64,000 nt of DNA from Eukaryota sp. GEM-RC1 (taxonomy: Eukaryota): the NCBI GenBank assembly GCA_040285855.1, contig JAUFOQ010000006.1, forward strand, positions 620,001-684,000, read 5' to 3'. The notes under the pieces were generated by a model. The model saw nothing but the letters and a program-made list of their open reading frames with translations, ran no database searches and was not told the origin of the DNA. Each line of letters opens with the position of its first letter. The first letter of the stretch is position 1. This document shows, in pieces, positions 9,520 through 57,988 of this stretch. The position numbers and the translations under genes were made by a program.

Positions 9520-10098
9520 AATTTTTGTTCCTAATTTTGATATTTGGTAATTCCTTTTCGAATCTCAAAAATATTCGGTACAATAAATGTTTGGCTTCTG
9601 TTTTGAATACTGACAATGGTCCATTGATGGCTCTAAAACATGTAAAACAGGTTGAATATGGATTATGCCCTTATGAAGACAGTTTATTGATGGAGGGTAC
9701 AAACATACATATAATAATAAAAGCTATGAAACACTAGACACCGAAGATTCCTGGTCAACAGTACCACAGTTTTTCTACAACTTTGTGAAAATTGATTTAA
9801 AAAACTTAGGCACCGAACGGAACAAAGAAAAAATCAAACGGTTATGCCAAATTGATAAGTTAAATCTCTTATTTTGAGACTTACACATAGATCCAAAATC
9901 AGTTAAAGCCCTTATGATGTATCCATCTACGGTCGTTTAGGAAAAAGTGCATTTTTTTAAACGATTTCGGAAAAATCGTAAAAAATAGGATGAACAAACG
10001 TTTTGACCATATGTTATGGTTGAATCGTATCCTTTTACTGAGTTTGAGACAATTCCCCTAATCATCTCCAAAGCTTTACTAGCTGTGGGTTCCTATTA

Positions 10099-10314
10099 AA
10101 AATTTAATTTTATTCGGCACCCAATAAGGTAACCTTCCTACAAAACTATGAAATTGTAAAAACAAACAAAAAATACTAAAATTAAATCCAAACGACTTCA
10201 TCACCACCCGGTAAAAGATTACGTTTATCAACATTAACCTTCACACCAAACTTGTACAATTTCTCAATTAATCTAGAGAAATAGACATGCATATTCCGAT
10301 ATATGAATATATAT
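10099..10314 (-). mobile_element. 5'-truncated 3' end of a non-LTR retrotransposon
   Basis: 9-bp TSD TTCCTATTA (10090-10098, 10315-10323); encodes the C-terminal FIYRNM..YFSRLIEKL and ends ...GGTGCCGAATAAA; near-identical copy at ~16137-16332. Confidence 0.75.
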
Positions 10315-10628
10315 TTCCTATTATGAACATAGCGGTTGTCAGATTTGATAGGGACTGGTGTTGTTAATGATATCACATTTTAATTGTTTAGCCTATTACT
10401 TTTATAGACATTGGTTCTTTAAGAACCAATATTTTAAATTATGCAACACAATCATTATTTTTGATATCTATGAAATAAATATAGTTGTTAAAAGGAAAAC
10501 GCAAAAATGTATAATAACACATCAAAACACTTGAGTCCACGAGCTACAACAACAAAGACCACAAAAACCAATACTAAAAAGTTATTCAAAAGAAATTCTT
10601 ATACATGTATCAATTACATAACAATTGT

Positions 10629-15957: not shown

Positions 15958-16136
15958 GTTTCAGATAATTCTAGTGCAAAACAGAAATGAGTGGAGGGAA
16001 ATTTAAAATGTACAATATAGAAACTCAATTAAAGATACAGGGTTGTACCATTGAACTTGAACGAAAACCAAAATATTAAAATACATACAAGGTTTTATCT
16101 ACAGTTAAAATAGTAAGGAAAAATATATATATAAAC

Positions 16137-16332
16137 TTTATTCGGCACCCAATAAGGTAACCTTCCTACAAAACTATGAAATTGTAAAAAAAAAAAACAA
16201 TACTAAGATTAAAACCAAACGACTTCATCACCACCCGGTAAAAGATTACGTTTATCAACATTAACCTTCACACCAAACTTGTACAATTTCTCAATTAATC
16301 TAGAGAAATAGAAAGGCATATTCCGATATATG
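16137..16332 (-). mobile_element. Second copy of the 5'-truncated non-LTR retrotransposon 3' end
   Basis: Near-identical to 10108-10305. Confidence 0.75.
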
Positions 16333-18478: not shown

Positions 18479-19047
18479 GAGTCCATTGTTTTTCTACAAG
18501 CGATTTGTAATATACTGTAAATCTAACTAATTCTTGTCTCAGCGTTGATACTTCCGTCAGTATAGCATTCATACATGCCTAATTACAGTAAACAACATTA
18601 TTTTGCCGTATAGAATTCAGTTCATATGAATTTCCAAATATAGAATGAGATGAAATTACGTGTTAAATTGCGCGCATTTGACATTTTGAAACAGTGCTTA
18701 AAACACTCAAGATCATGAAAGTGTGGATTTTAATTTTTGATTTGTTTAAGCAATTTACGCTGCTTCTTTAAGTTCTCCGGATGTAAAACAGTTTCACGAA
18801 AACGTGGAGTAGAAGCACTGATGAAGAAACAAATACATAGAATGTACGAGTTTTAGTTTGTAGGTGAGATTATCATATGACATCACAAAGAAGCGTAGAG
18901 AACGAAGGATTATGTTTCACTGGTATACTTGATTAATAAAAAGATGTGTTTATTGGTATATGAACATTTAGATGTACTTTTGAAATACCCAATTAAAAAT
19001 CCTTCGTCCAATTTCTACTACAGTTTCTTCTTTAGAAGAGTAGTCAC

Positions 19048-24776: not shown

Positions 24777-26330
24777 TGTTTTAGTGATTGTTGTAATTTT
24801 AGCTAGGTTTAGATTGTGACCATCTTCGTTTGTTGGTCACATCGCTATTATTTGATATTAAATTATTACCGAACGATTAGTTATTTGAGAGACAAAAGGT
24901 CATTTGAATTAGTTACTTTTGCTTTTACTGTCAGTTTGTAAGTTTCCAATAAACAGTGTACGACAAGAACAGTGGTAAAAACCAAAACACTGAACTGTTT
25001 TAACATACCAGTACTTGATCGTGGTATTTCCCCTTTACAATGGCTCCTGATGCAACTGAGGAGTTTCAGTTGTCTGTTGATCGGAGCGCTCAATGCAACT
25101 TTAGACCAAGATTGATTTGTTTCAGACAATATTGAATATTTCTATTTATATATTTATATTTAATATATATATTCTAAGTTTTCATTTGTTCCATTTGCGA
25201 TTTCAATTTTTGGTAATATTGATCCAGCCGGTTTAAAGTTTTTCTGTGTTTTTAGTCTTTTATGTCGTTCTAATGGCAAGGTGTTTAATAGTGCTGTAAG
25301 GATCAATCAAATTATGTTCGCTCTTTATAGAAGCATTCCAAAGTATTTATGTTCCATTTATTCGAAGTTGTATAGGGTTAATTCTCGTGTTGATGTGGAG
25401 AATTTAACTTGTTTCATTTTCTGAATTAGTATGTATTAATTTATTGTTGCAAATAAACTCTAATATATTTTGGGTTATGGGTATAATGTTTAAAAGGGTT
25501 AATTGTCAAAACAAAACATATTCCGTAGTGAATCAAGTTTCGATCTGTGACTGACGAAAAGTATGCAACTGGCCTAAGTGAAACTGAAACTGAAGTGAAC
25601 AAATATCATATCAATCATTGAATCAAATATATGAAAAATGGTGAGTCTTATACAATTTAGAATTCGGTTATGTAAATGTCAAATCATTTCACATTTGAGG
25701 GAATTGTTCTATTCACTTTTATGTACGGAATCAAAGTTTACATTTAACACAAAGCATTTTACGGTTTCAAAATACTTGCCCTAATCATCTCCAAAGCTGT
25801 TCGAGCTGTGAGTTCCTATTATGAGGACAAAGCTGTTGTAAGATTTGATAGTGACGAGTGTTGTTTTAATGATATCACGTGTTAGTTTTCTTTAGTATCA
25901 AAGTAGCTGCATTAAATTGGCGAAGACACAATAATATTGTCTTTCCGCCTTTTGTGATATCTTTGAACGGATATTTTTGTTCTTCTACTTAGGAGTTTTT
26001 TATTTGTCGAAGAATTTGGTAAGAAGCTTACCAGGTCGTACGGGAAGAATAAATTTGTTTTTTCGATCCTTAAGTTTATGTACAGTTCTGTTGATTCCAT
26101 TTTGGCCAAGATGTTTGGTGGTAAGTACATTTCATAGTTTGTTTTAATAGTCTCTATGTTTTCAGCTGTTTTCTCGTTGTGTGTTTTCCTTTTTTATTCG
26201 CCCATAAAATCCAGTTATAAATTACAGTTCATAAAAAAGCAATTTACTTTATTATAAATCATTCAAATGGACTAAATAACAACAAATAGGAAAACCACCT
26301 AACATTAACACGTCAACATGTATGTGACAC

Positions 26331-29194: not shown

Positions 29195-29902
29195 CAGGGA
29201 TGGGAAATAATGAATTGCCAGTCCAATATTGCCAATCAATAGCAATATTTATTGATTGATCCGCTGTTTTTCAATATCAGTATATTACCAATATTGCCAA
29301 TACAATATGTCTCTAATAAAACAACAAATTTACTTTTTCTTCCCTTACATGCCTGACAACAAAGTCGTTTGTGGCGTCTTTTTAACCCTGCAGTCAACAA
29401 TTGACAGCCAGGACATCTGACAACGTGTGTGCGGAGAGATCCGAAAACGGTAAACTTGGAGTTCATTCCTGCAACTTCTGTTGAAGTGGAAAGATTATTT
29501 TCTCGCATTAGGCTTTGTACGTGCCAAAATCGATTTTGTTTATCGTCATAAAGCCTTGAGCAACAGTTATGGCTGTACTACAATTGAAGTCTTTGGAATG
29601 TGAAAACTACTGGAAGTGCTTGCCAATCCCACTGGTCTGAAGAAGATGAAATCGTTGATGAAGATGGAGTTTAGACTATTTGTTCGGAACAAATTGTTGC
29701 ATTACTTTTGTAGTATAGAAATTCGATAGGTTTTGCATTTGTTTTTTTTAAGTACTAGGAGCATGTCTTTCTTTAATTTAAGTGTATTAACCATACAACC
29801 TGTTTATTGCAATATTGGCAATGTATTGGAGCCGATACTGTATTGATTGGTGAGCTGTCTTCCGATACCAATACATTGCCAATCCAATATTTCCTATCCC
29901 TG
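29195..29902 (+). mobile_element. Non-autonomous hAT element with a transposase C-terminal dimerisation relic
   Basis: TIR CAGGGAT(G/A)GGAAATA; perfect 8-bp TSD ACTATATA; PATSVEVERLFS motif at ~29468; CCAAT repeats. Confidence 0.92.
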
Positions 29903-31315
29903 ACTATATACAAACTGTAGTATTTTTTATGTGTAGTGCTACAGCAAGGTTCCAACAATTTCAGCCATACTTGCAAAATTCCGCCACTCCCAGTAAAAAA
30001 AATACAGCAAACACACTTAATACAGAAAATGCAAAAATGCAAAATAACTCGAACTTAGTCGACTTTAATGAAAGTCAGGGTGAGAACTGTTTCTATTTAA
30101 AAGTGTCAATGACTGTAATTATATGTGTTTCACAACCAAACTAAACATAACAAAACACAAACAATACCAAAACAAATAACAGACATCGACTATTTAGTTT
30201 TCCTCTGTTCTAGTCGGCTGACATTCTAAAACACTTTCCAATCATTTTTACAGATTGAGACTCCTCAAAAACATCAAGAGGATCCATCATTAGACGAGTG
30301 TGTGATAACAATAAATTAATCAAGGGTAACTGCTTATAATTCATCTTCCAATAAAGACAAAGTTGTATATGGTATCATCATTATCATTATCAAAAACAGC
30401 TACAGAACAGTCAAAAACTCTTCTTTAAGTAGTTCCTCAAGAAGGTGATCTTGGATGATCCCTAATTTCATATACTAGTATGCAAACCAGTACTCATACC
30501 TCCATTGGTAGTTAATTACTGAGTTTCACGGAATCAATAGTGTTGCCTGTTTTCTAAAGTTGTAGTATATTAAATTGTAGGCCTAGAGACCTATCCAATG
30601 TTGTGTGTCAAGGACATTTCGGCCTTGTTGACTCTTAATGGTCAAGATACGACCAATTAGCATCTATTATGTTTCAAAAATAAGACCAACACGTAGAAAT
30701 AGAGTAAATTGATCAATACATGGTCATCAAAAGATTCCTGTAGTAGCTTTTCATTCATAAACACACAAAAAACTATCATATTATTTCAGTATAAAGAAAA
30801 ACAAAAAGCACATGAAATACAAAAATACAAAAAATACAGTATATGTATTTTCCAAGTATGATTTGAACCTCTATAAATTCAAGGATCCTCTAATTTCAAA
30901 GTCCGAACAAGGTTGAAATCGCAGGAATATCGAATTAGCTTGGCTATAATTGAGACTCCTGTTTCCAAAGAAATTCACATCTTTCGAAAAAGTGTGTTAG
31001 TAGGATGGAAAGAATTTTAATGAAAGTTATTGGATACGAAGGCTGTCATTGTCCTTCTTCAACGCATTGTTTAGGTGCTTTGATTCGATTTTCGTCTCTT
31101 TGCTTTGAAGCATGAATATAGGACAATGGAGAGGTCGTTGTATGTCCTGTTAATACTGATGATGATCTTGATTTGTATGAGTAAATTAAGGGCGTTTTTA
31201 GGAACCTTACTGTATTAATCACGTTCAATGACTAGCAAGTTAGTGAATGAATCTAATGGTAGATGATACTGAAACTATATATAGAAATTTGTCGAATTTT
31301 ATTGAACAAAGTATA

Positions 31316-37320: not shown

Positions 37321-37714
37321 TACACACTCTTCACAACAATTAGTCTGGATCAGACTAATTATGAATATTCACATTTGAACAAAAATCCCAAACAAAAATA
37401 TTTTCATTGTAGGAAGGTTAGCTTATTCGGTGCCGAATAAAAAGTACATGTATATATCTTTTCATTGATCATCAAATCTTGCTATTTCTTCGTAAATGTT
37501 ATGTTGTACATCAGGATCGTTGTTTGCACCTTAAATAGAGGTATAAGACCAAAGAAATTCAGAAACAGGACTGATCAGCTATCAAATTGCCTCTTCAAAA
37601 TTGATTAGTGACCGAATTGTCTTTCAAGGAAGTGCGAACAATGTATGACATGGATTGTTGGCAATTCAACAACAGTCTAGGAAGAAAAATGAAAGAAATG
37701 GCTGTATGACTCAT

Positions 37715-38449
37715 CAGGGATAGGAATTATTGGATTGACAATATACTGGTATTGGAAAACAGCTCACCAGTCAATTCAGTACAGGCTCCAATATATTGCC
37801 AATATTGCAATGTGTATAGATCGTACGTTAATACACTTAAATTAAATTAATTTATTTATAAATTAAGAAAGATATACTCCTAGTACTTAAAAGATATCAA
37901 ATGCAAAACGTATCTAAACATTAATGCAACAATTTATTACGAACAAATAGTCTAACCTCCATCTCCATCAACGATTTCGTCTTCTTCAGAACAGTGAAAC
38001 TGGCAAGCAATTCTAATAGTTTTCACATTCCAGAGATTTCTACTGTAGTGCAACCATAACTATTGATCACGACTTTCTGACGATAAACAAAATCGATCTT
38101 GGCCCGTACAAAGCTGAATGTGAAAAATAATCTTTCCACTTCAACAGAAGTTGCAGGAATGAACTCCAAGTTTTCCGTTTTCGGATCTCTCCGCACACAC
38201 ATATCCAGGTTTCCTAGCTGTCATTTGTTGACTGCAGGGTACAAAAGACCCCACAAACGACTGTTGTCAGGTATGTAAGGGAAGAAATAGTACATTTGGT
38301 ATTTTATTAGAGACGTACTGTATTGGTAATATTGGCAATACATTGATATTGAATAACAGAGGATCAATCAATATGTAGATTAGTAATATTAAAATTATAT
38401 TATTATTTTTGGTAATATTGGATTGGCAATTCAATATTTCCCATCTCCG
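37715..38449 (-). mobile_element. Second, inverted and diverged copy of the 29195 hAT element
   Basis: Starts CAGGGATAGGAA; the reverse complement aligns with 29195-29902, including the PATSVEVER relic at ~38135-38160. Confidence 0.8.
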
Positions 38450-39451: not shown

Positions 39452-39529
39452 TGTTGGTCTTTGGTACCATGTAAAGAGATAAAGTGAATTTATTATACAA
39501 TTAAGTCCTGATGAGTCATGACACTAACA
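39452..39529 (-). repeat. 3' LTR (78 bp)
   Basis: Identical to 45619-45696. Confidence 0.95.
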
Positions 39530-42500
39530 TTACTTCTTCCCCTTTTTCGAGGACCTAGTCCTCTTAGCAGGTGGAGTAGTGAGAATGACGGAATTAGGAG
39601 TGTTACTAGAGTTTGGGTTACGATTACGACTACTTCTAGGTTTACCTTTAGGTTTAGATTTGGGTTTGACGTGAGGGTTTAATTTAATAAAACTTGAGTA
39701 AGCCTTAGTATTCTTTACCAGACTCAGGGGTTCCTCAGTAGTATCACCATCGAACCATACGACGGAACATATGGGACCCGTAGGAGAATCACGTTGATCG
39801 AGGATCTCAGTGATGACCATTTCTTCAGAGTCAAAAGATGCCACTGCTTTGTGGAACTCGTCGGAGGAGGGTTTGTCAGAAAGGTACTTGGTGCATAAAT
39901 GAATGCTAGAGCGGAAGCGATGTCCAGTGACAAAGTTCTGCAGTTCAAGCGAGCTTTTGGAAGGTATATCAATGACGAGGTACGGTCCTTCTTGTTTGCC
40001 ATGTAGCTTCTTAGCTGCTTTGTTACTTCGTAGTACTAAGTCACCGATAGCAAATAGCGAGGGGGTATCGACTGTAGTAATGGAAGATTTGATAGATGAT
40101 TGGGTAGTTTCTGCTTCTTCCCGTTTTTTCCAAAATTCTCGTTAATTTTGATTGGTAATCAGCTAGAAATGAATCTTCTGAGATCTGGTTCTGAGTGAGG
40201 CAAGATATGATTTTACTCGGATCACTACCAGGGCTGGTGTCAGATCCAAACATCAATTCGTACGGTGTAAAGCCGGTTACTCTACTCTTCGTAGTGTTTA
40301 CCAGCAGTTGTACTAATGGGATGTTTTTACTCCAGTTGTCATAGTCATTGAAGTCTATGAGCATCTTTCGTAAAGCTTGTAGGATGTCTCTGTGTCGTCG
40401 TTCAACTAAACCGTTGCTAGGAGAGTAACTAGGAATAGATTTATTAGTTGTGATGTCAAATTGATTGCAGACGTCAGTTAAGACGTGATTAGCAAATTCT
40501 TTGCCATTGTCACTATGAATGATATCTGGAATGCCGAAGATGGCGCAAACGTTACACACCAACGAATATGCTGTTTCGTGATCATTCAGTTTCTTTAGTG
40601 GGCATAGGATTGTGAATCTGGTGAAGGAATCTATGAACACTAGTAAGTAAATGTTTCCCGATGTGTCAGTGGGAAGTGGTCCTATAGTGTCGACGTTCAT
40701 CTTTGCAAATGGTTTGTCGGACCACAAATTACCCGAAGATTTGATAGTTGTTTTGACAAGGGGAGCTGTCTTTTGACAAGCTGGACATTGCCTGCAGTGA
40801 GTTTTCATGTCGTTGATCATGCTGGGCCAGAAGTAGTCACTAGATTTTGGCCGATCAATGCTATCTTTAATGCTGGGGTGACCTGCATGTGGAAAACCGT
40901 GTAAGTGGTTCAAAGTGGTTTTCACCAAGGCACTTGGTATCAATATCTTGTTGTGGCTATTCATGTATAGCTGGAACTCTTCATTAAACCAAGTAGACGG
41001 ATGTTGGAATAATGGATCGTTATTTTTGATGGCTTCTACTTGTGTAGAGCGTACTTTCGAAAGCCAAGCATCGAGTAACTTCGATTTGTTGATGAGAGCA
41101 TCGTCAATCATGTTGATCCTCTGTTGATAAAGTTTGATATTCTGTATCCTCATCAGTAGGACATAGGCTATCGGTTATAGAGAACAAATGCTCGGGACAG
41201 TTTGTGACTATGTTGTTTATAGACCCTGTTGGTACGTCTTTGATAACGTTGCGTGACAACATGTCAGCCCAATGGTTGTCTTCGCCACTAGTGTGGACTA
41301 TAGTGAATAAGTATTCGCTGAGAATAGGGATCCATCTTTTGACCATCCTATTCTTTTCAGGTGCTGAGATTAAGTAAGCAAGGTTCTTATGATCTGTGAA
41401 GATCGTTAGTTCTCTGCTGATAAGGTATGATGACAGTTGTGATTCCGTTGAAATCAGGAGAATGGCGTACAATTCCTTTTGGATCGTGGCCCAGTTAGTC
41501 TGTGAGTAGTTTGCTGTAGAATGCTAGTGGTTCTACTTTGCGTTCGTTCAGTGGAGTTCCCTAAGGTGAGTGAGGGGGTGCATTCTAGCCAGACGACACC
41601 ACCTACGGCGATATCGCTGGCGTCTGCGCTAATCAGTATGCGTCTGTCTTTGTCTGGTTGACATAGTGGCATGTGATTCATTATCCTCTTCTTGATTTCA
41701 TCAAAATTTAATTGAGTTTGAGGTGTCCAGTGAACTGTTCGTGCATTGTTCTTTACTAAAGCTATTATGGGAGCTAGTAGGTCAGAAGCATCTGCTATGA
41801 AATCTTTGATGTAGTTGATTGAGCCGACGAAACTTCGAACTTCTTTGATGGTGGTCGGTGTTGGTATGTTTACCAAAGCTTCTACACGTTCCGAATCTAT
41901 TCGACGAGTGTTGTCGATGTATTCGCAACCTTAGATAATTATAGGATGATTCTTTGTTATGAACTTGCACTTGTGTAAGCCATGGTTGACTCTATAAAGT
42001 TGAGCTCTCTCAAGAACGAATTTTATTCTAAATAAGTATTCATCGAAAGTCTTAGCGACTGTGATGATGTCATCGATGTAAATGAATATACCTTCGTGGT
42101 CGAAAATATCCATCATCAAGTTTTGAAAGATTGCTGGTACGTTCTTTTGGCCAAAACAAGCTCGTTTAAATCGAATGGCTAGGCCGTGGATGACTAGAGT
42201 TGTCTTGTCACGTTCGTGATCCGCAGATTCAGTTGCCAAAATGCTTTTGGCAGGTTGAGAGTGGCTATGTAATTAGTTTCACTTAGAAATTCTTGTATGT
42301 CTGCGATTCTCGGTAGATTCGGTTCGACAGTCTTAGTAAGTTCATTGATTCCTCCAGTACCACTGAAGTCACCCGTAAGTCTAGGCTTACGATGATCGGG
42401 GTAGACCACAAGTACTACTGGGGAGCTGAATTTTCCGTTGGGATTAGTATACTCAGCGTATCCCAAACGGACTAGTTCATGAAAAGTTTCTTCGGCTATC

Positions 42501-45500
42501 CTTTGTTTGACAGGATTAAGCCTCCGAGGTTTTCGTTTCACCGTGGACTCTTCATCGTGGAAGTCAATTGTCATCGGTGAACAATCGATGCCATCTTTGT
42601 GTGGAACGGAATCGAAGATAGTTGAGAACTCGCTAAGTAGGTTCAGTAAACGATTGGTTCTGTCATCGTCATCTAATTTGATTGAACAGCCGGAATCATA
42701 AACAAATTTATTGAAATCTGTATTGTCTATAATAGAAGAGCTATTGGGCATAGATATGTTGGAGTCGAACTCAGACTCGTCGTTGCTATGAGCTAACATA
42801 GTTTGTTGAACTGGGATGATTAGTCCCTCTTCAGTCAGTAAACCTAACTGCTTCATGAGATCAATACCTAACAAATATTTGTTGGATCCAGGGATGCTAG
42901 GTAGAGTCTTCGTCACAGATGTTAGGTGTGACACCTTACTGAACTTGAAGGTCAAGATCCCGTGGGCGCTACCCAGTGAGTGAGATCTGACGTTGTTTGC
43001 TGATGTGAAGTGAACCTTCTTGTTGATGAAAGTCATTGAACATCTATCGACCAGGTCTTGTGTGATGACGGACATTGATGCTCCACTGTCCCATAAACCC
43101 TGAATCGAAACACCATTGATGGTCAGACTGCAACTGAGGAATGGTGGTGGATCCTGGTGATCGATAATGCTGAATATCGAATTCAGGCTTAGTGAGTTCG
43201 TACCACTCGAATTACTGATGTTGTGGAGTGGATTTGCGTATGGATTATGTGAATTCGACGATGATGTATTGTTGTGAATATGGTTTATATGTTGAACGTT
43301 ATACTTACTATATTTATTGTGTTTACGTGAACTATTACTACGAGAGGGAGGTTTCTTTGCCTCAGATCGTGGAAGGCGTTGATCAGCGGGAAGTTCACTT
43401 CTACGGCAGTCAGGGTGATTACAGTGAATGATCTTATGATCAAAAAAATCACAGAAACTGCATTTGTTGGGGTCTTTCTCAGTTGGGTCTTTCTTCTCGG
43501 ATCGGTTCTTCTTTTTGAAGGAAGGGGATGGAGAAGGAGCAACTCTTTGATCAGTTGATCAAAGTTTGTGACCGGCGGAAGTAGAGAAAGATTTGGTGGC
43601 TGATCTCTGCATAGCTTTGGGTAGGTCGTTCCATGAGTCTTTGTCTCGGTGGACTAGAATTTCAACGTCTTTCTATTCACGTTGAACATGTGCAGGGGGA
43701 GTGTTCCCATCTCTTACACCACGTGTTGTAGTGTTCGAGGGCGACGGCGAAGAACGTGTGGAGGTCCTTGGAGTCTTTGTACTTCTGGCCAGAGGGTTAG
43801 GTAAACGGAGGCGATACCGACATTCGTGAGTAGGGCTTTGATGATTACTCTTTCTTCGAGACTCGAGTAAACATTGGCCTTTGAAGTGCGCATCGGTGTA
43901 CTGCGATTTAGGATTTTGTCGAAACGTCTAATAAAAGTCCAGCCATCGGTCTTCATGGTCTCTAATGTTCCAGTTCATAACTACTTCATTGATCTTGTTC
44001 CTTGCTGTGATGTATTCTCGGAACTGTGTTCTGAGAATGATTTCAATAAAGAGGTTGCGGTGATCTTTCGTTGTTTTGCCTAGGTAGGACAATTGTTGTT
44101 GAACTCGGAAGTCTATCAAACGGGGAACCCATCTCGTGTCAGCGTCGCTGGCGGCAATACGGCCAATGTCGAAGAAAAAAGTAGCTTGACCCAAAGGTTT
44201 GTCGGTCGGTTGCTTGTAATCCGGTTGAGGTAAGCAAAAGCTCATGTAGTCTCCAATCCAATAAATCATGACGTCAGGGTCGTCAAGAGTTTTAAGGACG
44301 GGAGGAGTAATTGATTTGTTTAGCTCACTGTTGATGTCCGAAGGTAGTCTTTCATTGAATTTCAGTACCGAGTATGGTGTCTGAATTGGAGGAGGATTAT
44401 CCGACTGAGAGGGAGTGTGAGGCTGAGCTTCTGGAGATACTGAGAGGGCTCTTACCCTTTGACGGATGTTGAGGTCAGCATGGTCTCGGGGTCCAAAAGG
44501 CAATAGAGCTGGGTCTCTGGGCATTGAGTGTGGAGAAATTCCACCTGTACAATTCTCCGATATTCCACCGGGACTATAAGGAGCGTCTTCAACCAAAGGT
44601 GGAACAGTGTCCGAAGGGTTGGAGTTTATCGCAGGGATGCTGTAAGACGGAACTTCTACATCTGCGTAACTGCTGAGATCGTCTATCTGTCTTTCAATGT
44701 CTTCTACTTGTTCTTTTGAAAACGGTGTTTTCAGCAGATTGTAGGCTTGGGGTGTGGTCACTAGAGAATTTACACGGTTCTTGTCCATAATAAATCCTAA
44801 GAGTTTCCCCCTGACTGTGCAGATAGTAGCAATCTCTGGGTAGAGATTGATTCTGTTGTTGAAATACCTTTGGTAGACTCTCTTGAGCTGTTTAGCCGGT
44901 TTGAGGAGAAAACTGTCTTTCTCGTATTCAAGGTAAGTCTCACCGTTGAGACGGGCTTGTGTTCTGAACTCTTGCCATTGTACGGCGTCGAAGTTCTGAT
45001 ACATTCTGCGTTCCGCTTCATGAATTTCTTTAGCCGAGGAACTCGTGGTTAACAAACCTGGGAGATTGGGATCTGTTCCAGGCATGGTAAATCCTAGTAC
45101 CGTAGTAGGAGGCTTTGGAGCCATTTTAGGTTTGTGGGAGTTCCGTGGAATTGGCTTGGGTAACGGCGAAATTGAAGGGCTGGAGGCAGGGTTTGTCTAA
45201 GGTGTGACGGTGACAGGAGACGTTTTCTTAGGAGGAGTATTTCTATCCGCCTTTCCTGAAGAGGGAGGGTATTCGTTCTCGACGGGTGGGTCGGTGACCA
45301 CCGGGGAGTATACAACTTGGTGAATGGTTTCCTCGGGAGGATGGTCATCTTCGAAAGAGGAGTTAGCAGGAGATTCGAGACCCTCGTCGAACTCCACCGT
45401 GTCGTCCCAAGGTTTCCCGTCAGGTCCCAATTCGGTGTTTGGGGGAGGGTTATCCTTGGATGCCAGGTCGGAACTGGGCTTAGTAGTACCTAGGTCGGAA

Positions 45501-45618
45501 CTAGGGTTATGAGTCTTGCCTAGGTCGGAACTAGGGCTTGGGTTAGTGTTGTTTCCAGGAGTGAAATGCTCCGGAGTACATACGCATTGAGACTCTTTAC
45601 AGAGGCCACAATAATTAT

Positions 45619-45696
45619 TGTTGGTCTTTGGTACCATGTAAAGAGATAAAGTGAATTTATTATACAATTAAGTCCTGATGAGTCATGACACTAACA
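45619..45696 (-). repeat. 5' LTR (78 bp)
   Basis: Identical to 39452-39529. Confidence 0.95.
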
Positions 45697-48306: not shown

Positions 48307-48314
48307 TATCGGTA

Positions 48315-48476
48315 ACTGAATTTCCCCTTACTACTTAGTAGTAATCTGTGCTTTTCATATAAAATGAAAACCCCAGAATTTCTTTTATAGATTAATCCAG
48401 ACTGAATTTCCCCAATGAATCCTAAGATTCAATAATTCTACAGATTCACTGTAGTACATAAAGGCTATGACTATGA
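48315..48476 (-). ncRNA. Candidate omegaRNA-like structured region: two hairpin-hairpin-GGGGAAATTCAGT modules
   Basis: Immediately 3' of the Fanzor stop; 13-nt direct repeat at 48315-48327 and 48401-48413; four short hairpins. Confidence 0.4.
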
Positions 48477-50600
48477 CTATGACAAATAACTGGGTCTAAT
48501 TCCTAGACCCCGCTCCAAATGATGCTCCACAATTGTCTTGATGTTGATACATGCTAACTTGTTACGATTCCAAACCTTGGCGCTACCATGACATTCTTCT
48601 CTACATTCTTGGGACTTGCATCTCAACAAAGCGTGACACTTTACTAGAGGTTTCTTCTCTCTTTTCGATGGTCTTGGATTACTGATTTCTTTGAACACTT
48701 TGACTGGCCTCCAACAAGTAGGACACTTTGAAGACGTGTAACTCTCATCTACCAGAACAATATTGTAACCATTTCTCTTAAAGAAGTTTCTCCAACCCAC
48801 ACCTCTACTTGATCGGAGGTGTTTTAGGTTCTGCGTCTTATTAACATTGTCACCAAACATCAATACACAGCCATCTTTATTCCATCCTTTTGCAGTCATA
48901 TTTTTCAACAACTTACTTTCTGTTTTTTGAATATGGACATATCTTTGCATTTTTGAATGCGCCATATCATCAAACAGTAGTAGTCAAATGTTGATTCAAT
49001 AACTGTCAGTTTGGAACTCACATAGTCATAGAAGGTTTCATAAACGGTTGACTTCGAGTTTTCTTTGGATAATGTTGACTCTTCTTCTTCAACTGTCTTT
49101 CCATCTAGGAGAATAAATTCTTTTTTCTTTCCCCTTCTAAACTTTTGATGAACCCTTGACCATCTGGACCATTCTGTTTCTGTCAATCTTAGCCACTCAT
49201 ATTCTTTGTTTCTTCTTTCTCGGGCTTTTTGTTCAGGAAATGGCCTATTCACTTTCTCTGAACAAAAATAGAGTAAATCTGTTTTTCCAGGTTCAATAAA
49301 AACTTTTGTGTTCAATGAAAACTCTTCAACAACATAGTCTTGAACATATTCTTGTTTACTGGAGAACTTTGCACTGTCTGGTTTAAAGGACATTCCAACA
49401 CAGTCCTCTCTAGTAAGTTCAACACAAGCAGAGAAACCATCAGTTTTAATGGTATTGTTATACTTATAACCTTTCTTTAAAAATGGACGATTGAAGTTGA
49501 AAAAATGTGACCAGAATAAGTTTTGTTCAGCAGGAGACATGTGTTCAATTTCAACTTTTGTGTTCCACTCAGACATTTTCTTCTTGACATTCACTTGTTT
49601 TGTTGACAAAGTGGAACGTAATATTCCCCAAAGACCTTGTGTGTCTATTTCAAAGAAACCTGGTGTGACGTGACGAACAATAGGAATTACATTGTAAGCA
49701 CTTGCTCCTTCACTTTCAAGATAGTTATTTATTTGAATCGCAGATTTAATAAAGGATTGAGGATGTTCACGAACTGATGTTAGTAGAGATTTAACGACTT
49801 TCTTTTTATAAACACCATTAGCATTTTGAACATCAATTGACGGTGGGAAGAGAACATCAATAAAATATTTATCTCAAAAACAATCCTTCAACATAGTCGT
49901 TAGTTGCCCACAGAAGTTTAATTTTACCTGCAATGTTCAAACTTCTATTACTGTCGTCTTGAAGAATTTCTGTATTACATCTTTGAATAAATTGTTTTAT
50001 TTCTGCAGGGGTTTTTGGAATGTCATTTCTGTTACCTTCAAGAAAGACATTTTTAACTTGTCTAAGTCTCCAACAAAAAACAGACAGTTCTTTTTTTGAC
50101 ATTTTTTCTTCTTGATCAGTCTTTTGAAAATAAACATTAATAAATTTGTCAATTTATTGAGCATATCGCATTTAAATATTGGTGTCCAGATTCTCTTTAA
50201 TAGTTTCACCAACCATTGCCATAAGTCGTGAGGAATGACAGGCTGGAAAGAGTGGAATTCCACCATTGTTGAGCATTACTTGTTTGTATTGATTTATAAC
50301 AAATGTTCTCAAGTGTTCATTAAATGTAGGAGGTCGTCCTTGATTACATAATTCAATCTCATGATGTTCAGCAGAGATGTTTCTTAACAGAGTTTGAACA
50401 TGTTCAACTTCCTTCCTTGTATTTAAAGGTAATTTTTCACCATTCTTATCCATGTGTAATAAAAACAGCTTCAAACAATAGGAAGTGTGCATTCTAAGTT
50501 TGTGAACCAATTGAGCATAATAATCGAGTAATAACGTTAATCCAAAATGTTTGACAATAGACTTTAGTGTAGTTTTATGTGTTACAAAAGTTGGACGAAC
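48477..50600 (-). CDS. Fanzor (eukaryotic TnpB homologue, Fanzor1-like) domain of the polyprotein; RuvC-I D>E and RuvC-III D>N
   Basis: KTTLKSI...HTSYCLKLFLLH; NVIP....PGFFEIDT; IKTDGFS; IEPGKTDL; MFGD; VLVDESYTSSKCPTC; HALLRC....C; WNRNKLACINI. Two in-frame TAAs near 50150-50175 and two frameshifts. Confidence 0.88.
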
Positions 50601-50639
50601 GATTTTATTTGATTGAAACAATAAAAACAACTTCAATGC

Positions 50640-51345
50640 TAGTACACTGTCTTTGAAGCAATAGTTCCCAACTTCTTGAGGTCTTTCAACAACACAATCA
50701 ATAGGCAATAAGTCGTGAAATTCGTCATGAAGACGTCCTTTAGATTCGTTTAATAAAAACCAACTTAATGTTCTTAAAGACTTGGAACATTTTGAAACAA
50801 TAAATTGCTTAGCATAGACGTACGAATCACATACAATTCTACCAGCCCATTCAGAACAAGCATTTTGCCATAGATGAGATAGATGAGATTTAGTTGTTTC
50901 ATCTAGCATTGGTTCTGGAAAGTTGACTCCAAGTGTAACAATCCCGTTGCCTAAAACAACTACATCGAAGTCAGTTATGTTAAATCCAGTTAAAACTGAG
51001 GGATTTTTATCATTCAAATAGTTGACAAAAACTCTATTAACTGTTTTTCGTTTTCAAAAAATCGAAGGTTGCTACAATCAGGTGGCAGTTCAACATCAGA
51101 TTCATGAGTCAACTCTGAAGTTGCAACAAAATTGTCTTGAAGGTAAAACTGATCTTTTATAAAATGACCAAACACTCCAGAAATCATGAAAACTTGTTGG
51201 TTTTGAATCCACACTTCTTTTCTGCATCACTTTTCATTTTGAGAGATTTATTCTCGTTCTTTCTTTGATCATCCAACTCCTCTGTAAGTGTCTCTGCAGG
51301 GATTTGATCAATTTCTCTAGTTTCAATATCAAAAGACAATATTGA
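50640..51345 (-). CDS. Family-B DNA polymerase-type DEDDy 3'-5' exonuclease domain, in frame with the Fanzor N-terminus
   Basis: ExoI SFDIET, ExoII NPSVLTGFNITDFD and ExoIII YCFKDS; ExoII, ExoIII and the Fanzor start lie in one unbroken ORF (50172-51017). Confidence 0.82.
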
Positions 51346-51701
51346 ACAATGATTAGAGTTATTTGGTAATTGGGAATGTTTGAGAAACTCAATCATTGGT
51401 TTTTTAGGAGGTTTCAAACTCTTTATCGCATTTGATACTCCACTTGCTTTTGGTTTGGTGGTTTTCCTTTTGGCAACTGTTGACTTTCTATTTCCTGCTG
51501 CTGTTGTTGTTTCAGTGGTGTCGGATGATTCAATTGTTTCTTTTTCTGTTGTATCAGGTTTCTCACAAGCCGCAACATTTATCTTTGGAGTTGGTAAATT
51601 TATTTCTGGAAGATCTGTCAACTCTGGACGACTAAAGTTATGATAACTTTCTTGAAATAATTCTTTAGCTTCTTCCAGCGCTTGTTCAATCATTTTTAAC
51701 T

Positions 51702-53496
51702 TCAAAAGACGTTTCTTTTCCGGTTAGATAAATTTCCAGGTAAACTTTTGGGAAAGTTTTGATAAGTGAGCTTTGACACCGTTTCCTTGTAACTACTATC
51801 ATCTAACATTGTTTCAGGAGTTGAACTTTCAGATTGACACTGTACAGGTTGATTAACAGGTGATTCAATCTCATCAGAATAAAACTCACCTTGGGCATGA
51901 GTACATACATATTGTCGGTATTCATCAGGGTGATCTTCATCAGGGTGAGTAGTAACGATTTGAGACAGTATTTGTTTTCTCATTTCTAATGCATTATAAG
52001 CAACACAATTAGAGACTTTAGACAGAATTTCGAAAAGATTTGTTGATGTTGATTCACACTCGACAAATTTATTCATATACATTAGAATAAATGGACCACA
52101 GTCATTAAGTGTTTGGACTTGTTGAACTGGTACTCTGGCTATATAGCTGAAATTTGCCATATCAAACAGGAATTGCTGTAATTGTGAAATGACATTGTCA
52201 ATACGTGATAAAGTGTTAGAAAACTGAGAATGTTGATCTTCTGTACACATTGAGTCAATAGAGAAGTATTGTTTATTTTGAATATCACAAATTAACAGTG
52301 ACCAGTGAGTGGCTGTTGTATCAAAGAGACCGTCATGTATTGGAATAAACAAGAAACGTTTCTTACACTTTTTAGTGTGTCTTTTACTGGATTTTTCCAT
52401 TGATAATTGAACCTCTCTAAATTGTTCAAACATTATGTTATACTGTGAAAGATTGATTGCATCTTGAATGTTGGCTACTTCAAAGAACTCGCATCGATTA
52501 CTCTTTTCAACAATGTACTGACCAACAAAGTCAATGACAGAATCATGAAGCAGCACATTAGGTTTCAGAGTGTCAATTTGATCAGATCTTAGTAAAATTG
52601 GTCTAGGACGAGATTGTGTTAGAATTCCACGATGTTGATGTTGTATAATTTGATATTTTTGAGAAAATTTCTTCTTTTTTGGAGGATATTTTCTAGATTT
52701 ACGAGTTCTTCGTGTACGATTTGAGTCTATAAGTTGATGGGGAGTAGTCAATGGCACTTGTCGAGTTTCATCAGGAGATGAAATTACTGTTGGGGTTGAA
52801 TGTGCTTGAGTGCTGTTTGAAAAGCACTCATTGACAATACTTACAGCAAGTATAGCAAAAGGCGTAGGATGAGTAGTTCCTATTAGATTTAGAACTTGTT
52901 TTCTCATTTCAAAAGCATCATAATCGACATAACCTTGGACTTGAGACATAGTTTCCTGGAAATTGTCAGATGATGATGCCAAATGAACAAATCTTTGCAT
53001 ATACATTAAGATATATGGTCCACAGTCGTTGGGAGTTTGCTGTTTAATAACTGGGAGCTTTCCTAAATTGGAAAAATTACCAAAATCTCGCAAATATACC
53101 TGTAAAGTACTGACAACTTGATCATTGTGAGTTGAAAGGTCAAATGAAAGTTGAATTGAACTGTCAGTGTACATTGGATCAATTAAAAAAAATGACGTAC
53201 TATCAATGTCACAAACAAGTAGAGTCCAATGAGTTGCTGTACCACGAAAGACACCATCGTTTATTGGAATAAATAAAAACCTTTTCCCAGTCTCTCGCAT
53301 TGAATTTTTGAACATTTAGAAATTCAAGAGCTAATGTGTCAAAATCGCCATAACTCACTGCAGCATGAAGATTCCCGATACAGAAAAACTGGCATAACTC
53401 ACTATTCTCGGTGATGTACTCACCATAAAAGTCAACAACAGAATCATCGAGCCATACGGAGGGCTTCAATGTAGTGATTCCTTCCTGAGTGACAAA
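51702..53496 (-). CDS. Tandem Ulp1/SENP-like (C48) cysteine protease domains of the polyprotein
   Basis: WLDDSVVDFY...FIPIN...HWTLLVCD...QQTPNDCGPY, and LLHDSVIDFV...FIPIH...HWSLLICD...QTLNDCGPF; both His-Asp-Cys triads intact. Confidence 0.88.
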
Positions 53497-53739
53497 AGGA
53501 CCAGGGTTTGATTCTATGTGTCCATCGATAGTCAAATCACAGAGAAATTGTGATGACTGGAGACTTGATTGTAGAAAAACCATACAAGTGCTGACTTTAT
53601 GATCGTAAAAACAAAACAACGACTGAGACGAACTCAAGACTTTCCTTAACAACAACAAAAGAAGAAACAACATAGAATAATTCGAGAATCCATGAGGAGA
53701 AAAAGGAACGCCTCGAGAAAATATGTTCTCTTGGCACAT
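53497..53739 (-). other. Leader peptide MCQENIFSRGV-hydrophobic-2A-like motif (DLTIDGHIESNPG|P)
   Basis: Matches D(V/I)ExNPGP except His for Asp; lies directly before the first Ulp1 domain. Confidence 0.7.
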
Positions 53740-53899
53740 CCTTAAACACGTGATCGTGTTTGGTTGATGAAAAGAAGAAGGAGAGAGATCTCAGGACACA
53801 AGTATCCATAGACATCTCTCCAAGCAATTGGACTCAAATATAAATTCAGACTATTTATAGATGTTGTCTACAGTGACATCTTGACATACTGAAACTGAC

Positions 53900-54012
53900 A
53901 ACATATGTAACAACAACATTTAATAGTACAACATTTAATAGTACAACATTTGTTACAACAACATTTGGTGACACAACATTTGTTACAACAACATTTGGTG
54001 ATACAACATTAG
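53900..54012. repeat. 15-bp tandem repeat (ACAACATTTGTTACA-like), ~7 copies, upstream of the polyprotein gene
   Basis: Read directly; a TATA-like CTATAAATA lies on the minus strand at ~53852-53860. Confidence 0.75.
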
Positions 54013-54475
54013 TTGAAAACTATAAGATACAAAGTATACATGATTTATGAAAGTATTTATAATTTATCAACTACTAGTACCATCTCAAGAAAACAACTCT
54101 TATGCTCCCAATAATAAATTGTGAATATATTCTTTCAAAGATTTAATAATGCAGATAATTACATTGACTTGTCAAGTGTTTATATTGATAGATTCTCTTT
54201 AGACGACTAGTATCAATTAAGTCAACTGTATTTTCTTTAATCTTTTGAGTTTCTTTTATTGTAACAAATATGACCTTTTGTGCGAAAAAATCTATATAAA
54301 TAAAAAGAACAAAAAATAAAAAAACGGAAGAGAATGTATTCGAGAAAGCAAAGAGTAACATCTAGATGTAGGAACAGAAGTAGAGCCCACACGTGTCTTC
54401 GTATCTTAAGGTTATAGTATTGGTTCAGCAGAGCGATGACGGTCCAAGGTTTTGAGGATGGAGCGCCTTCGACGT

Positions 54476-56987
54476 TATATCTTTACTCTGTTGACTCTAG
54501 TAAAATAGCGTCCACACTTATCATAGAACTCTAGAAAAAGTTCCTGGACCTGTGCTCTGTATGGAGTCAAAACAGCCACTGTCACTTTTCTATCCAACAA
54601 TTGCTCCATCTGTGATTTGTGATTTTTTTACAAAATTAGTAACTTGTTCCACAATGGCATTACATTCAGCCTTATTCAATAGACTCCCTGAAAGTTCGGC
54701 AGAAGACTTGTGATGAGAGCCAATAGTACTCACAAATTGTCTCCCTGGCAAATGTGAAGTGACCTTTGTAGGGTTCAATGGTACTAATTTTGTCATCATA
54801 AAATTGGGTATCAGAAAAATTCCACAATTCTGAAAATTGTCGATATTGTGGATTAAGCTGAGTATACCTGTTATTGTCTATCATTGCAGAGGTCAGTCTT
54901 TCCATAAGAGAAATCGACAATTTTGAATTCTTACTGATTACCACTGGTGGTAATTGTTGGGGATCTCCAACAATCACGACTGAAGTTTCGTCGCTTTTTA
55001 AAGCAGATACAATTTCTGGTTCAGTTGCTTGAGCAGCTTCATCTATGATAGGGACACTTGTAGGAAAAATCTTTTCTTGTCTGTCTGTATCCACTTGCAA
55101 GAGCTAATGTAGTAAAAACAACATCAAATTCATTCTTAATCTAACTCAAGTCGAGCTTTTCTTCTTTTCATCAGCAGTGATAGCACTGACAGATTCAACC
55201 GTTTCAGCATCAGGATTCAAGGCTTGTCCAAAAAATTCATCAACTGATTGTGGAACACGAGATAGATTGTGACCGATAGCGTTTTTTCTTTGTTTCTCAT
55301 TTTCAATTGCATCTCTGTCTTTCTTTTCTTCAATTCTTTTTGGCAGTAGAAATTCTTGAATTGATGGAGGCGGATCTCGATTCTGAGCACTGATACGGAG
55401 TAGCTTGTTTCTATCAATGTTGGGTTCATTTGACAGCTTCTCAAGAATGACTTCAACGGCATTATTTGAAGGTGCCGCAACCCATACTGGACGTTTATCA
55501 GCGATTAATGACATAATTAGTTTCACAATTGTCATTGTTTTACCAGTACCAGATCCACCATGTATGAAATACAATCCTGGTCTAGAAACGTGTAACTCTC
55601 TAATTCTTCCAACTGAGTGTCTTTGTGAATTATTCAAATTTTTGAAAATTTCTGGTGAACCTGGTGTAAGATTCGCTTCACATGGAGAAATTGGATCTGA
55701 TGATCCAGCAATGTTCAATTGATATTGAAACCGAGGAGGAACTTTCAAATCTAACATGGCTGAAATTTGACGTAAGAAATTGCTGCCAGAACCAACTTTA
55801 ACTGGAACTTCAAACGTTTAAATTTAAATTCAATAATGCAAAAACAAGTTATCTGAAGACCCAACATTTTCACAAGGACGTGCTTTTGAAAACTCTGCTG
55901 CAAAAGATATTTGAACTAATACTTCATACATTGGCAGATTTAGTTCATGAATTGTATTCAAAAAAGTTTCAAAACTACTGATATTGTCGCGAAATGATGG
56001 ATTTTTAACTCTATCAGCCAAAATAAGACGAATTTTGGTCAAATATCCATGTTTGTGTTGCCGTGAAGGTTGTAAAGAGTATTCCATGAAGCATTCCTGT
56101 TTATCAATGTTGTTCAGACCAAGACAACAGTTTGCAACCGTTTCATCTAAGAGTTTATTGATCCACTCAACTGAATATTCATTTGGAATTGCAGTGTGAT
56201 AAAGCTCACTAATGAATTCCTTCTTTTGATCGTCAGGCAATTGAATTTGGTGTCTAATATTTTCAGAATTTTCCTTGACAATAGCCCAAAATTTGAACAT
56301 ATATGGCACATATAAACTATTCACAGATGGTTTTTTGTCTCTGAGAGGGGCTTGTTGAGAAGATGGTTCAATCTGAAAGAAATTTTGGCCAAAAATATAA
56401 GAAGAACCAGAATCAATGTTTTTCGAGGCAAAAACATCGATAGCAATTCTAATCTATCAGTTTCAAGAAAATCGTTGAGTTGGTTTTCAGACCAAAAAGG
56501 TACTACTTTGCGCTGACTCATTCGATCTTTTTGCAGTAAGGGATTAGGTGTTTCAGATAGGAAAGGTCTGTTATGGTCGGCGAGATCAGGCAAGTCTTGT
56601 GGTGGGGCACTAACTTCATATTCTGCTGTTGGTGGTTCATTCTTGTGAACCTCTTTAATCTGATTAGTGGCCCAGGTTTTTCCTTCTGATACTGATTTAA
56701 CCCTGTTATGTCTAAGCTTTCCTATAACATAGTCAGCTTTAAACGATGTTCGATTATGGTTTTTGTACCAATATGTTTTATTTTCGACATCTACTAAGAA
56801 AAAAAAGAACAATATCAGGTTTGCGGGGACCAGGGTTGGCTTCGATATCACCATGCTGAGTAAGATCATGTGCAAAAGGTTGTGCTGATGAAAGAAGAGA
56901 AAAAATGAAGGAGATGGAAGGAAAGATAAAGAAGTTTGGGAAAAGCCAAGACACAACGCCTCGAGAAAATATGTTCTCTTGGCATTG
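54476..56987 (-). pseudogene. 2A-leader plus Upf1/DNA2-like SF1B helicase gene, frameshifted, C-terminal motifs V/VI not evident
   Basis: Canonical 2A DLTQHGDIEANPG|P (56826-56870); LNNSQ; GGSGTGKT; AAPSNNAV; IIDEAAQATE; VGDPQQLPP; QYR; N.AE; VLTPYRAQ. Confidence 0.82.
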
Positions 56988-57239
56988 GTCTGAAGAACTG
57001 ATGTTCTTTGTGAGACTAAAAAGGGCAAGTGGAGTAGTAGCATATGATGAAATGAAATGGCGCTTTTTTATGGTGGAGTACCATTTGCATAATTTCGAGT
57101 GTTGATTTCTTCCATCAATCAACAACTAAGAAGACGTTTCTATGTAGCGATTTTTGATTAATCATGTCAGTAATGATCATGATATTGTTGAGTTTTATGG
57201 ATATTTTGAGAAAATAGTTATGTTTCTCTTATATATATA

Positions 57240-57844
57240 GTAGGTGTCCCAATACAAGCAAAGTTCCAATACAAGCAAGGCCCCAATACAAGCAAGTAAA
57301 AGTGTTTGCTTGTATTATTCTATTGCATTCGGGATGTTGAGCGGGTTATACTTCAATACAAAGTTTGTTAAGGTGAATTACGACGTATGGAGCTGTGGAC
57401 GAACTTCATAGTGTCCAATTAAGTGCCTAAATGTTGTTGCGGATTTTTACCCGAAGAACTCCATGGAGTTATTGTATTGTTTGGCATTTATAAAATCAGA
57501 AGCACAAAATGGCGTTTTAAAACCAAATTATGGAACATTAGGCAATAGAATCCCTGTCATTAGAACTTTGCTCCTATAAGACAAATATTGTGTACTTGTA
57601 GAACAAATTAAAATACTGTTATTAAAGCATGTGTCATAGTGTGTTGTTATAAATTTTTGTTCTATTTAGAATACAGTGTACAAGTAGCATTACGAATTAG
57701 AGTATGTGATCCTGTAATATATTGAAAATAAAGGTGTCGTCGCTTCACCGTATAATAGGGTCCCAATACATGCAAGGTCCCAATACAAGCAAGAAAATGT
57801 GTTTGCTTGTATAAGATATAAAGTTGCTTGTATTGGGACACCTA
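57240..57844. mobile_element. MITE with 22-bp TIRs (Tc1/mariner-pogo-like, in TA-rich context)
   Basis: GTAGGTGTCCCAATACAAGCAA ... TTGCTTGTATTGGGACACCTAC; internal CCAATACAAGCAA repeats. Confidence 0.85.
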
Positions 57845-57988
57845 CGATATTCGCATATCAAAGTGATGTGTCAAATCAGTGCCATTTCAAGATTAAGATT
57901 GTATAAGAGTTCTCCTTACGTTTCCCACAGTGCAGTGTTTTAGTATTTTTTCACACGTTTCTTCCAACTTAGAAGTGACGCTTGACCT

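What the first reader, a model, noticed from the sequence alone, without database searches (positions are those of the whole stretch)
48310..57230. Helicase plus Fanzor polyprotein form a ~9 kb cassette with no recognisable transposase or capsid
Seen: a co-oriented Upf1-like SF1B helicase gene with a ~350-aa unassigned N-terminal region lies directly upstream of the polyprotein gene, between ordinary host genes. I found no DDE transposase, HUH/Rep, tyrosine recombinase, polymerase domain, capsid, TIR or TSD. Inference: a new mobile element or endogenous virus fragment. A dead RNA-guided binder plus helicase plus exonuclease would be functionally reminiscent of Cascade-Cas3-style recruit-and-degrade logic.
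Basis: inference. Interest (0 to 1): 0.7.

Follow-up and report, generated by a model that had tools for sequence, protein, structure and literature searches.

The report
Fanzor nuclease fused to proofreading exonuclease
This is a broken copy of a repeated protist element whose one large gene joins a protease, a DNA-proofreading exonuclease and a Fanzor RNA-guided nuclease that is likely active in intact copies, while the helicase gene beside it is likely an optional passenger rather than a required partner.

Summary
Both genes exist and are co-oriented, but both are broken pseudogenes about 0.8 kb apart. The downstream gene is a 2A-like peptide, two SENP8-like proteases, a PolB-type 3'-5' exonuclease and a full Fanzor1. 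It belongs to a young multicopy family: 49 named gene models in three related metamonad assemblies, 9 unbroken from exonuclease to RuvC-III.

The 'dead binder' premise fails. The family triad is D-E-N (D 29/30, E 30/31, N 29/29), and D-E-N is natural and active in GtFz1. This copy's RuvC-I glutamate is seen in only 1 of 30 relatives.

The helicase's 'unassigned' N-terminus is probably in part the ordinary stalk and 1B barrel of Upf1-like helicases. Eight relatives turned up, all in one assembly and none in the relative with 28 Fanzor models, so it is not obligate. A locus-number linkage test gave 0 of 8 but failed its control. The two genes do share an exact 30-nt block and a 2A-like leader. 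No transposase, Rep, capsid, TIR or TSD joins the ends; a 616-bp MITE abuts the 5' edge.

Verdict: a real new Fanzor1 variant (exonuclease fusion, not found in my literature searches), not Cascade-Cas3 logic.

The parts
57235..57850 (.). 616-bp MITE-like insertion with 27-nt terminal inverted repeats and 17-nt subterminal repeats; hides or abuts the 5' end
   Evidence: (I2 96% complementary, D5); no Pfam hit in its frames
56955..56984 (-). 30-nt block identical to 53707-53736, in the leader of gene A
   Evidence: 100%, E 9e-12 pairwise; 18-nt core occurs exactly only at these two sites
56826..56852 (-). 2A-like motif of gene A, fitting GD(V/I)ExNPGP, after a hydrophobic leader
   Evidence: motif definition from PMC3708506; activity untested
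56325..56825 (-). Unassigned N-terminal stretch of gene A (about 165 codons, frame-broken)
   Evidence: no Pfam or PHROGs hit
55650..56324 (-). Likely stalk helices and 1B beta-barrel of an Upf1-like helicase, with about 35 aa missing near 55800-55850
   Evidence: relatives P0026-P0032 and P0175; low-confidence model of P0175 matches Sen1/SETX first, Z 5.9-6.6; Atlas leads
54478..55650 (-). Upf1-like SF1 helicase core, frame-broken and 3'-truncated
53740..54477 (.). AT-rich spacer with a 15-nt tandem array (53898-54014)
53707..53736 (-). Second copy of the 30-nt block, in the leader of gene B
53497..53523 (-). 2A-like motif of gene B (H in place of the usual D)
   Evidence: a 2A-like motif also precedes the protease in P0010 and P0017
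51978..53490 (-). Two tandem Ulp1/C48 protease domains nearest SENP8/NEDP1; His and Cys motifs present in both
   Evidence: Peptidase_C48 E 1.4e-20, 2 stretches; PDB best hit SENP8 E 4.2e-05
51334..51977 (-). Low-complexity, basic linker
   Evidence: 27% to P0010
50649..51333 (-). PolB-type DEDD 3'-5' exonuclease; ExoI, II and III acidic residues present; two frame breaks
48480..50600 (-). Full-length Fanzor1; RuvC-I E (family D) at 49283-49300, RuvC-II E with zinc finger at 48714-48752, RuvC-III N at 48549-48572; two stops and frame breaks
48310..48483 (-). Hexamer repeat at the stop codon, then hairpins and a 13-nt direct repeat; candidate omegaRNA and right end
   Evidence: the whole 201 nt gives z -1.5, hand-picked parts z -3.3 and -3.5; no Rfam match here

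Best explanation
Gene B is a decayed copy of a multicopy element whose protein fuses a SENP8-like protease, a PolB-type 3'-5' exonuclease and a Fanzor1 that is likely an active RNA-guided nuclease in intact copies, and the upstream helicase is likely a variable 5' module rather than a required partner. Shown: the domain order, conserved catalytic residues, copy number and dispersal, and differing 5' modules on near-identical 3' cores. Inferred mechanism: an omegaRNA from the 3' end guides Fanzor to cut element-free sites, as described for other Fanzors. The fused exonuclease would trim the short 3' tail between the cut and the insertion point so that host repair can copy the element in. The protease would remove NEDD8/SUMO-type marks from repair or silencing proteins, and the 2A-like motif would drop the hydrophobic leader. 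Movement to new sites would rely on a transposase supplied in trans, or on the same cut-and-copy route; these could not be told apart.
For: Fanzor1 identity: best PDB hits of P0003 are SpuFz1 (E 5e-24) and PpFz1, then Pol delta exonuclease (E 3e-06). Fusion: 9 of 28 RCL models run unbroken from exonuclease to RuvC-III, and 4 of 20 GEM-RC1 models join ExoIII-region sequence to RuvC-I. Young: 95-98.5% identity within one RCL subfamily and 94-97% among GEM-RC1 models, against 48-53% between these subfamilies; the window is 634/666 identical to P0196. Residues over 49 models: Exo D 11/11, E 10/11, D 13/13, D 17/18; RuvC D 29/30, E 30/31, N 29/29. D-E-N is active in GtFz1 (PMC11423790 passages). 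Variable 5' modules: P0010 and P0017 are 98% identical in the core but 33% in the 2A-protease part; P0022 carries a DEAH helicase; P0005 carries repeats. Precedents: MCi-2 (variable 5', near-identical 3', no TIR); Spu-1 lacks a transposase; the T4 polymerase 3'-5' exonuclease affects intron homing; Ulp1 domains occur in several transposons.
Against: No DNA of any other copy was available, so ends, TSDs, omegaRNA conservation and empty sites are untested. The 5' variation rests on automatic gene models that may join neighbours: P0006 carries a host DM10 domain and P0017 skips the linker. No activity was measured, and D-E-N activity is extrapolated from two other Fanzor1s. The exact 30-nt block and 2A leader shared by genes A and B argue that the helicase is more than a chance neighbour. 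The exonuclease's role is inference. A review argues that Fanzor benefits only elements that excise, and no excision enzyme was found here.
Confidence: 0.6

Rival explanations
1. In this lineage the full-length element is the two-gene unit. The helicase is a working part that unwinds or remodels the RNA-protein complex during copying, and most other copies are 5'-truncated.
For: Exact 30-nt block and 2A-like leader in both genes. The helicase family is itself a dispersed, fragmented repeat (8 models). One RCL model has a different helicase (DEAH) fused upstream (P0022). 5' truncation is common in CRe-1/2/3 Fanzor elements.
Against: No RCL or TZLM1-RC member among the 7 best non-self hits looked up, and none at 392-2000 aa. 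No helicase relative above 71% identity, although Fanzor copies are 83-95% identical to the window. 0 of 8 helicase models lie within 10 locus numbers of 20 Fanzor models (nearest 53), but that test has low power. The DEAH part occurs in 1 of 4 models of its subfamily and may be a host gene.
Confidence: 0.2
2. A non-autonomous Helitron2-like or retro-mobilised element, copied from its 3' end by an enzyme encoded elsewhere, with captured 5' cargo.
For: Constant 3' core and variable 5' part, no TIR, 3' hairpins, internal tandem array; CRe-1/2/3 precedent; Ulp1 domains in Helitron-like elements; 2A-like motifs in non-LTR elements.
Against: No Rep, RT or APE hit. The helicase scores AAA_11 1.9e-17 against PIF1 0.008. 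No asymmetric inverted repeat between the ends. A review reports no evidence for retrotransposons that encode Fanzor.
Confidence: 0.1
3. A fragment of an endogenous DNA virus or Polinton-like element.
For: 2A-like motifs, a deubiquitinase-like protease, an SF1 helicase and a PolB exonuclease are all virus-like parts.
Against: No capsid, integrase, packaging ATPase or polymerase core. Three viral-contig scans gave one distant Fanzor (26%, L001) without these neighbours among its six ORFs, read by eye. The exonuclease is nearest Pol delta. Ordinary host genes flank it.
Confidence: 0.06
4. A Cascade-Cas3-like system: a dead Fanzor binds the target and recruits helicase and exonuclease to degrade it.
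For: An RNA-guided module, a helicase and an exonuclease lie in one 9-kb stretch; this copy has E at RuvC-I and N at RuvC-III.
Against: RuvC-I is D in 29 of 30 relatives, and D-E-N is an active triad. The helicase is not found with the RCL copies. Helicase and exonuclease polarities oppose each other (established knowledge). The locus is a pseudogene in a dispersed repeat family.
Confidence: 0.04

Closest known systems
Fanzor1 (SpuFz1, PpFz1, GtFz1)
   Same: DPG RuvC-I, glutamate just before a C4 zinc finger, homology over the SpuFz1 length; D-E-N triad as in GtFz1; no transposase inside, as in Spu-1
   Different: N-terminal fusion to a PolB exonuclease, SENP8-like protease(s) and a 2A-like leader; no terminal inverted repeats found
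MCi-2 and CRe-1/2/3 Fanzor1 elements (Bao and Jurka 2013, PMC3627910)
   Same: Near-identical 3' Fanzor core, variable or truncated 5' part, no TIRs
   Different: Those have TSDs and Crypton or Helitron2 links; none was detected here, and no exonuclease fusion was described in the parts read
Homing endonucleases using T4 43Exo/DexA
   Same: A break plus a PolB-type 3'-5' exonuclease contributes to copying an insertion (PMC2988022)
   Different: There the exonuclease is a separate phage protein; here it is fused to an RNA-guided nuclease in a eukaryote
[quoted passage not shown]
   Same: Mobile elements carrying proteases, exonucleases and helicases
   Different: Those accompany a transposase; here they accompany a Fanzor only
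Type I CRISPR Cascade-Cas3; TldR dead TnpB
   Same: Only the presence of a guided module near a helicase and a nuclease
   Different: Nuclease triad is retained; SF1B rather than SF2-HD; linkage is not conserved

Membership tests
Fanzor1 | Homology to Fanzor1 across REC/WED/RuvC | tested here: met
   SpuFz1 E 5e-24, two stretches from P0003 residue 239 to 939
Fanzor1 | DPG at RuvC-I | tested here: met
   D in 29 of 30 relatives, DPG in the motif scan and alignment; the window copy itself has E
Fanzor1 | Rearranged RuvC-II glutamate six residues before the zinc finger | tested here: met
   E in 30 of 31; definition from PMC10711439
Fanzor1 | RuvC-III D (or N as in GtFz1) | tested here: met
   N in 29 of 29; N form active in GtFz1
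Fanzor1 | Conserved structured omegaRNA at the 3' end with a variable guide | tested here: inconclusive
   Hairpins in 48310-48480, one copy only; z -1.5 overall
Fanzor1 | RNA-guided DNA cleavage | not testable with these tools
   needs biochemistry
Helitron / Helitron2 | HUH Rep fused to a PIF1 helicase | tested here: not met
   No Rep hit; helicase is AAA_11/Upf1-like
Helitron / Helitron2 | Asymmetric terminal inverted repeats and terminal hairpins | tested here: inconclusive
   3' hairpins present; no matching repeat above chance; true ends unknown
Polinton / PLV / giant-virus insert | pPolB core, integrase, capsid, TIRs | tested here: not met
DDE or Crypton transposon | Transposase or recombinase inside the element | tested here: not met
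DDE or Crypton transposon | TIR/TSD shared with an autonomous family elsewhere | not testable with these tools
   no genome held
Cascade-Cas3-like system | Non-cutting guided binder | tested here: not met
   by residues and published mutants, not by assay
Cascade-Cas3-like system | Conserved linkage to the helicase | tested here: inconclusive
   not found in RCL or TZLM1-RC models; GEM-RC1 locus test underpowered
Upf1-like SF1B helicase | AAA_11/AAA_12 core | tested here: met
   C-terminal motifs missing in this copy
Upf1-like SF1B helicase | Stalk and 1B barrel before RecA1 | tested here: inconclusive
   model pLDDT 42; top three rows Sen1/SETX, Z 6.6/6.0/5.9, rmsd 3.1-3.8, 87-91 aligned; unrelated barrels reach Z 5.3

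The most novel reading that the evidence does not exclude
A transposase-free, self-propagating eukaryotic element. One polypeptide makes an RNA-guided break and trims the ends with its own proofreading exonuclease, so host repair copies the element into new sites from its 3' end. It swaps 5' modules (proteases, helicases) that share a 30-nt signal and a 2A leader.
Probability: 0.2. Interest if true: 0.88.

Novelty: new variant of a known kind. Interest (0 to 1): 0.58.

Why it matters
A natural fusion of a Fanzor1 to a 3'-5' exonuclease, kept with its catalytic residues across three metamonad assemblies, suggests that end processing is part of how some Fanzors spread. That bears directly on the open question of what Fanzor does for its element. 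Intact, near-identical copies exist as named proteins (P0003, P0005, P0010), so cutting, trimming and repair outcome can be tested at once, and the family is a second natural D-E-N lineage.

Tried and rejected
No whole genome was held and no sequencing run was listed (no evidence either way).

Scans for related DNA: the Fanzor alignment found nothing in metagenomes or prokaryote genomes. The helicase scan of metagenomes gave 2 loci; the one opened (L002) has its match inside an ORF that reads like a fatty-acid oxidation enzyme (my reading, not searched), so I rejected it; L003 was not opened. Viral scans gave 0, 1 and 0 relatives.

The structure model of the exonuclease-Fanzor was unusable (pLDDT 39). 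Foldseek on the helicase N-terminal model found nothing at E 0.001. Rfam gave only sub-threshold mir-3149 hits on the MITE.

The locus-number linkage test was rejected as decisive: none of the 12 N-half and 8 C-half Fanzor models are neighbours either (smallest gap 23), and repeats were masked before gene prediction (PMC11316075). The single-member cluster of the helicase piece is not evidence, since the linker piece is also single.

TIR and TSD searches gave matches of 10 nt at most, as by chance. Four look-ups in earlier scan notes returned nothing. No complex prediction was run, as binding is not claimed.
Full report
Observation. Six-frame reading and Pfam show two minus-strand genes between an LRR gene and a SHIPPO-repeat gene. 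Gene A (about 57000-54480) has a hydrophobic leader, a 2A-like motif and an Upf1-like helicase core. Gene B (53739-48480) has a similar leader and 2A-like motif, two Peptidase_C48 domains, a linker, a DNA_pol_B_exo1 domain and a Fanzor. Both are broken. Gene B has two in-frame stops and a frameshift against P0196 alone (634/666 identical) and further breaks against P0010. Gene A lacks about 35 aa that its relatives have and stops matching AAA_12 at position 133 of 195. The genes are about 810 bp apart, with a 15-nt tandem array between them. No transposase, Rep, recombinase, polymerase core or capsid was hit, and no repeat joins the two ends beyond chance. A 616-bp element with 27-nt TIRs touches the 5' edge.

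Gene B family. Two protein searches and two cluster look-ups gave 50 named gene models: 28 from TZLM3-RCL, 21 from GEM-RC1 and 1 from TZLM1-RC. One (P0191) agrees with the window letter for letter over its blocks and was dropped as not independent, leaving 49. Five further cluster members were not listed, and two environmental Fanzors (24-27%) were left out of the counts. The best solved relatives of P0003 are SpuFz1 and PpFz1, and its N-terminal part matches the Pol delta exonuclease (Atlas 10 of 10 PolB exonuclease). The protease is nearest SENP8/NEDP1. Nine of 28 RCL models run unbroken from exonuclease to RuvC-III, so the fusion is not peculiar to this copy. Copies are 94-98.5% identical within three subfamilies and 48-53% between them, and they lie on many contigs.

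Is it dead? Among models covering each site, RuvC-I is D in 29 of 30, RuvC-II is E in 30 of 31, and RuvC-III is N in 29 of 29. The exonuclease acids are kept in 11/11, 10/11, 13/13 and 17/18. The window's RuvC-I glutamate is thus a rare change in a decayed copy. Passages of PMC11423790 state that GtFz1 naturally has N at the third position and cuts, that SpuFz1 D606N cuts better than wild type, and that the reverse change in GtFz1 lowers activity. The family is therefore likely active, which removes the premise of the Cascade-Cas3 comparison.

Frame breaks. All 5 other GEM-RC1 models that reach the A-run near 48950 break there as the window does, while the RCL and TZLM1-RC models checked mostly read through. 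This is either a long-read homopolymer error (those assemblies are Nanopore with Illumina correction) or an inherited lesion. The stops and the deletion in this copy are not homopolymer events.

Gene A. An exhaustive profile search (188 hits at E 0.001, 7 at 1e-10 including self) gave 7 non-self relatives above the generic background. I looked up those 7 of the 150 listed; all, plus one cluster member, are fragmentary GEM-RC1 models at 37-49% identity, one short piece at 71%. A search of 392-2000 aa proteins found none at 1e-20. So the helicase is a dispersed, lineage-limited family, not found in the relative with the most intact Fanzor models. A low-confidence model of P0175 (pLDDT 42) has two helices and then a beta-barrel whose top three structural matches are Sen1/SETX (Z 5.9-6.6), with IGHMBP2, Dna2, ZNFX1 and UPF1 lower and unrelated barrels up to Z 5.3. 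Given its place just before RecA1, I read it as stalk plus 1B. About 165 codons remain unassigned.

Linkage. By locus number, 0 of 8 helicase models lie within 10 genes of 20 Fanzor models (nearest 53; chance 0.23). The control failed: N-half and C-half Fanzor models are never neighbours either, so the lists are sparse and the test is weak. For linkage: genes A and B share an exact 30-nt block and a 71-79% similar 2A region. Against an obligate role: the RCL data, and the variety of 5' parts on similar cores. P0010 and P0017 are 98% identical in the core but 33% in the protease module, P0022 has a DEAH helicase, and P0005 has repeats. These are automatic models, and some may join neighbours.

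Mechanism (inferred). Other Fanzors use a 3'-end omegaRNA to cut element-free sites and are thought to promote copying back by repair (PMC13565253). Hairpins follow the stop codon here, but the stronger z-scores come from hand-picked windows in a single copy. Such nucleases cut some way from the insertion point (recalled), leaving a short non-matching 3' tail. A fused proofreading exonuclease would remove it; T4's polymerase exonuclease affects intron homing (PMC2988022), and a similar role for yeast Pol delta is recalled, not checked. How the element reaches new sites is open.

Novelty. Fanzor1 elements without a transposase, with variable 5' ends, and transposons carrying Ulp1, exonucleases or helicases are all known. 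I found no report of a Fanzor fused to a PolB exonuclease in seven full-text searches (listings only unless read) or by term search in the supplements of three Fanzor surveys (one scanned file and all figure images unseen). Many relatives carry a precomputed Pfam accession, PF26935, that my Pfam scans did not return and that I could not name.

What I read: PMC3627910 parts 2-4 of 7; PMC11316075 passages and section 6; PMC13565253 passages and section 20; passages only of PMC10711439, PMC10432273, PMC10530073, PMC11423790, PMC2988022, PMC11417382, PMC3708506 and PMC2836005.

Verdict: new variant of a known kind; interest 0.58.

Noticed in passing
window 39452-45696: LTR retrotransposon with identical 78-bp terminal repeats, aspartyl protease and rve integrase hits, yet a pol region broken into several frames; hints at assembly indels in repeats.
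   Followed up: partly
window 57235-57850: MITE-like element with 27-nt TIRs and 17-nt subterminal repeats in an AT run; no second copy in the window.
   Followed up: partly
window 57205-57227: A loose third look-alike of the hairpin-forming core of the 30-nt block just inside the MITE; seen by eye, not recovered at 3 mismatches without gaps.
   Followed up: partly
window 13219-15959 and 19046-21750: Inverted duplication of a host gene (90% identical); the second copy continues into a 78-nt tandem array, 21745-24326.
   Followed up: no
window 29199-29903 and 37714-38445: Inverted pair of about 720 bp, 80% identical, around a membrane-protein region.
   Followed up: no
window 6627-6804, 9992-10389, 16115-16332, 25757-25887: Short dispersed repeat family in intergenic DNA.
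   Followed up: no
P0204 (residues 1-78): A C-terminal piece of this Fanzor family is preceded by foreign sequence that looks like part of another Fanzor (motif recalled, untested): possible insertion of one Fanzor into another.
   Followed up: no
P0180, P0181, P0006: More distant Fanzor subfamilies in the RCL assembly (35-44%) also have RuvC-III N; whether they carry the exonuclease is unknown.
   Followed up: partly
L001 77-2515: Giant-virus contig with a canonical Fanzor1 directly after an ORF with an IS630/Tc1-like motif (recalled, untested).
   Followed up: no
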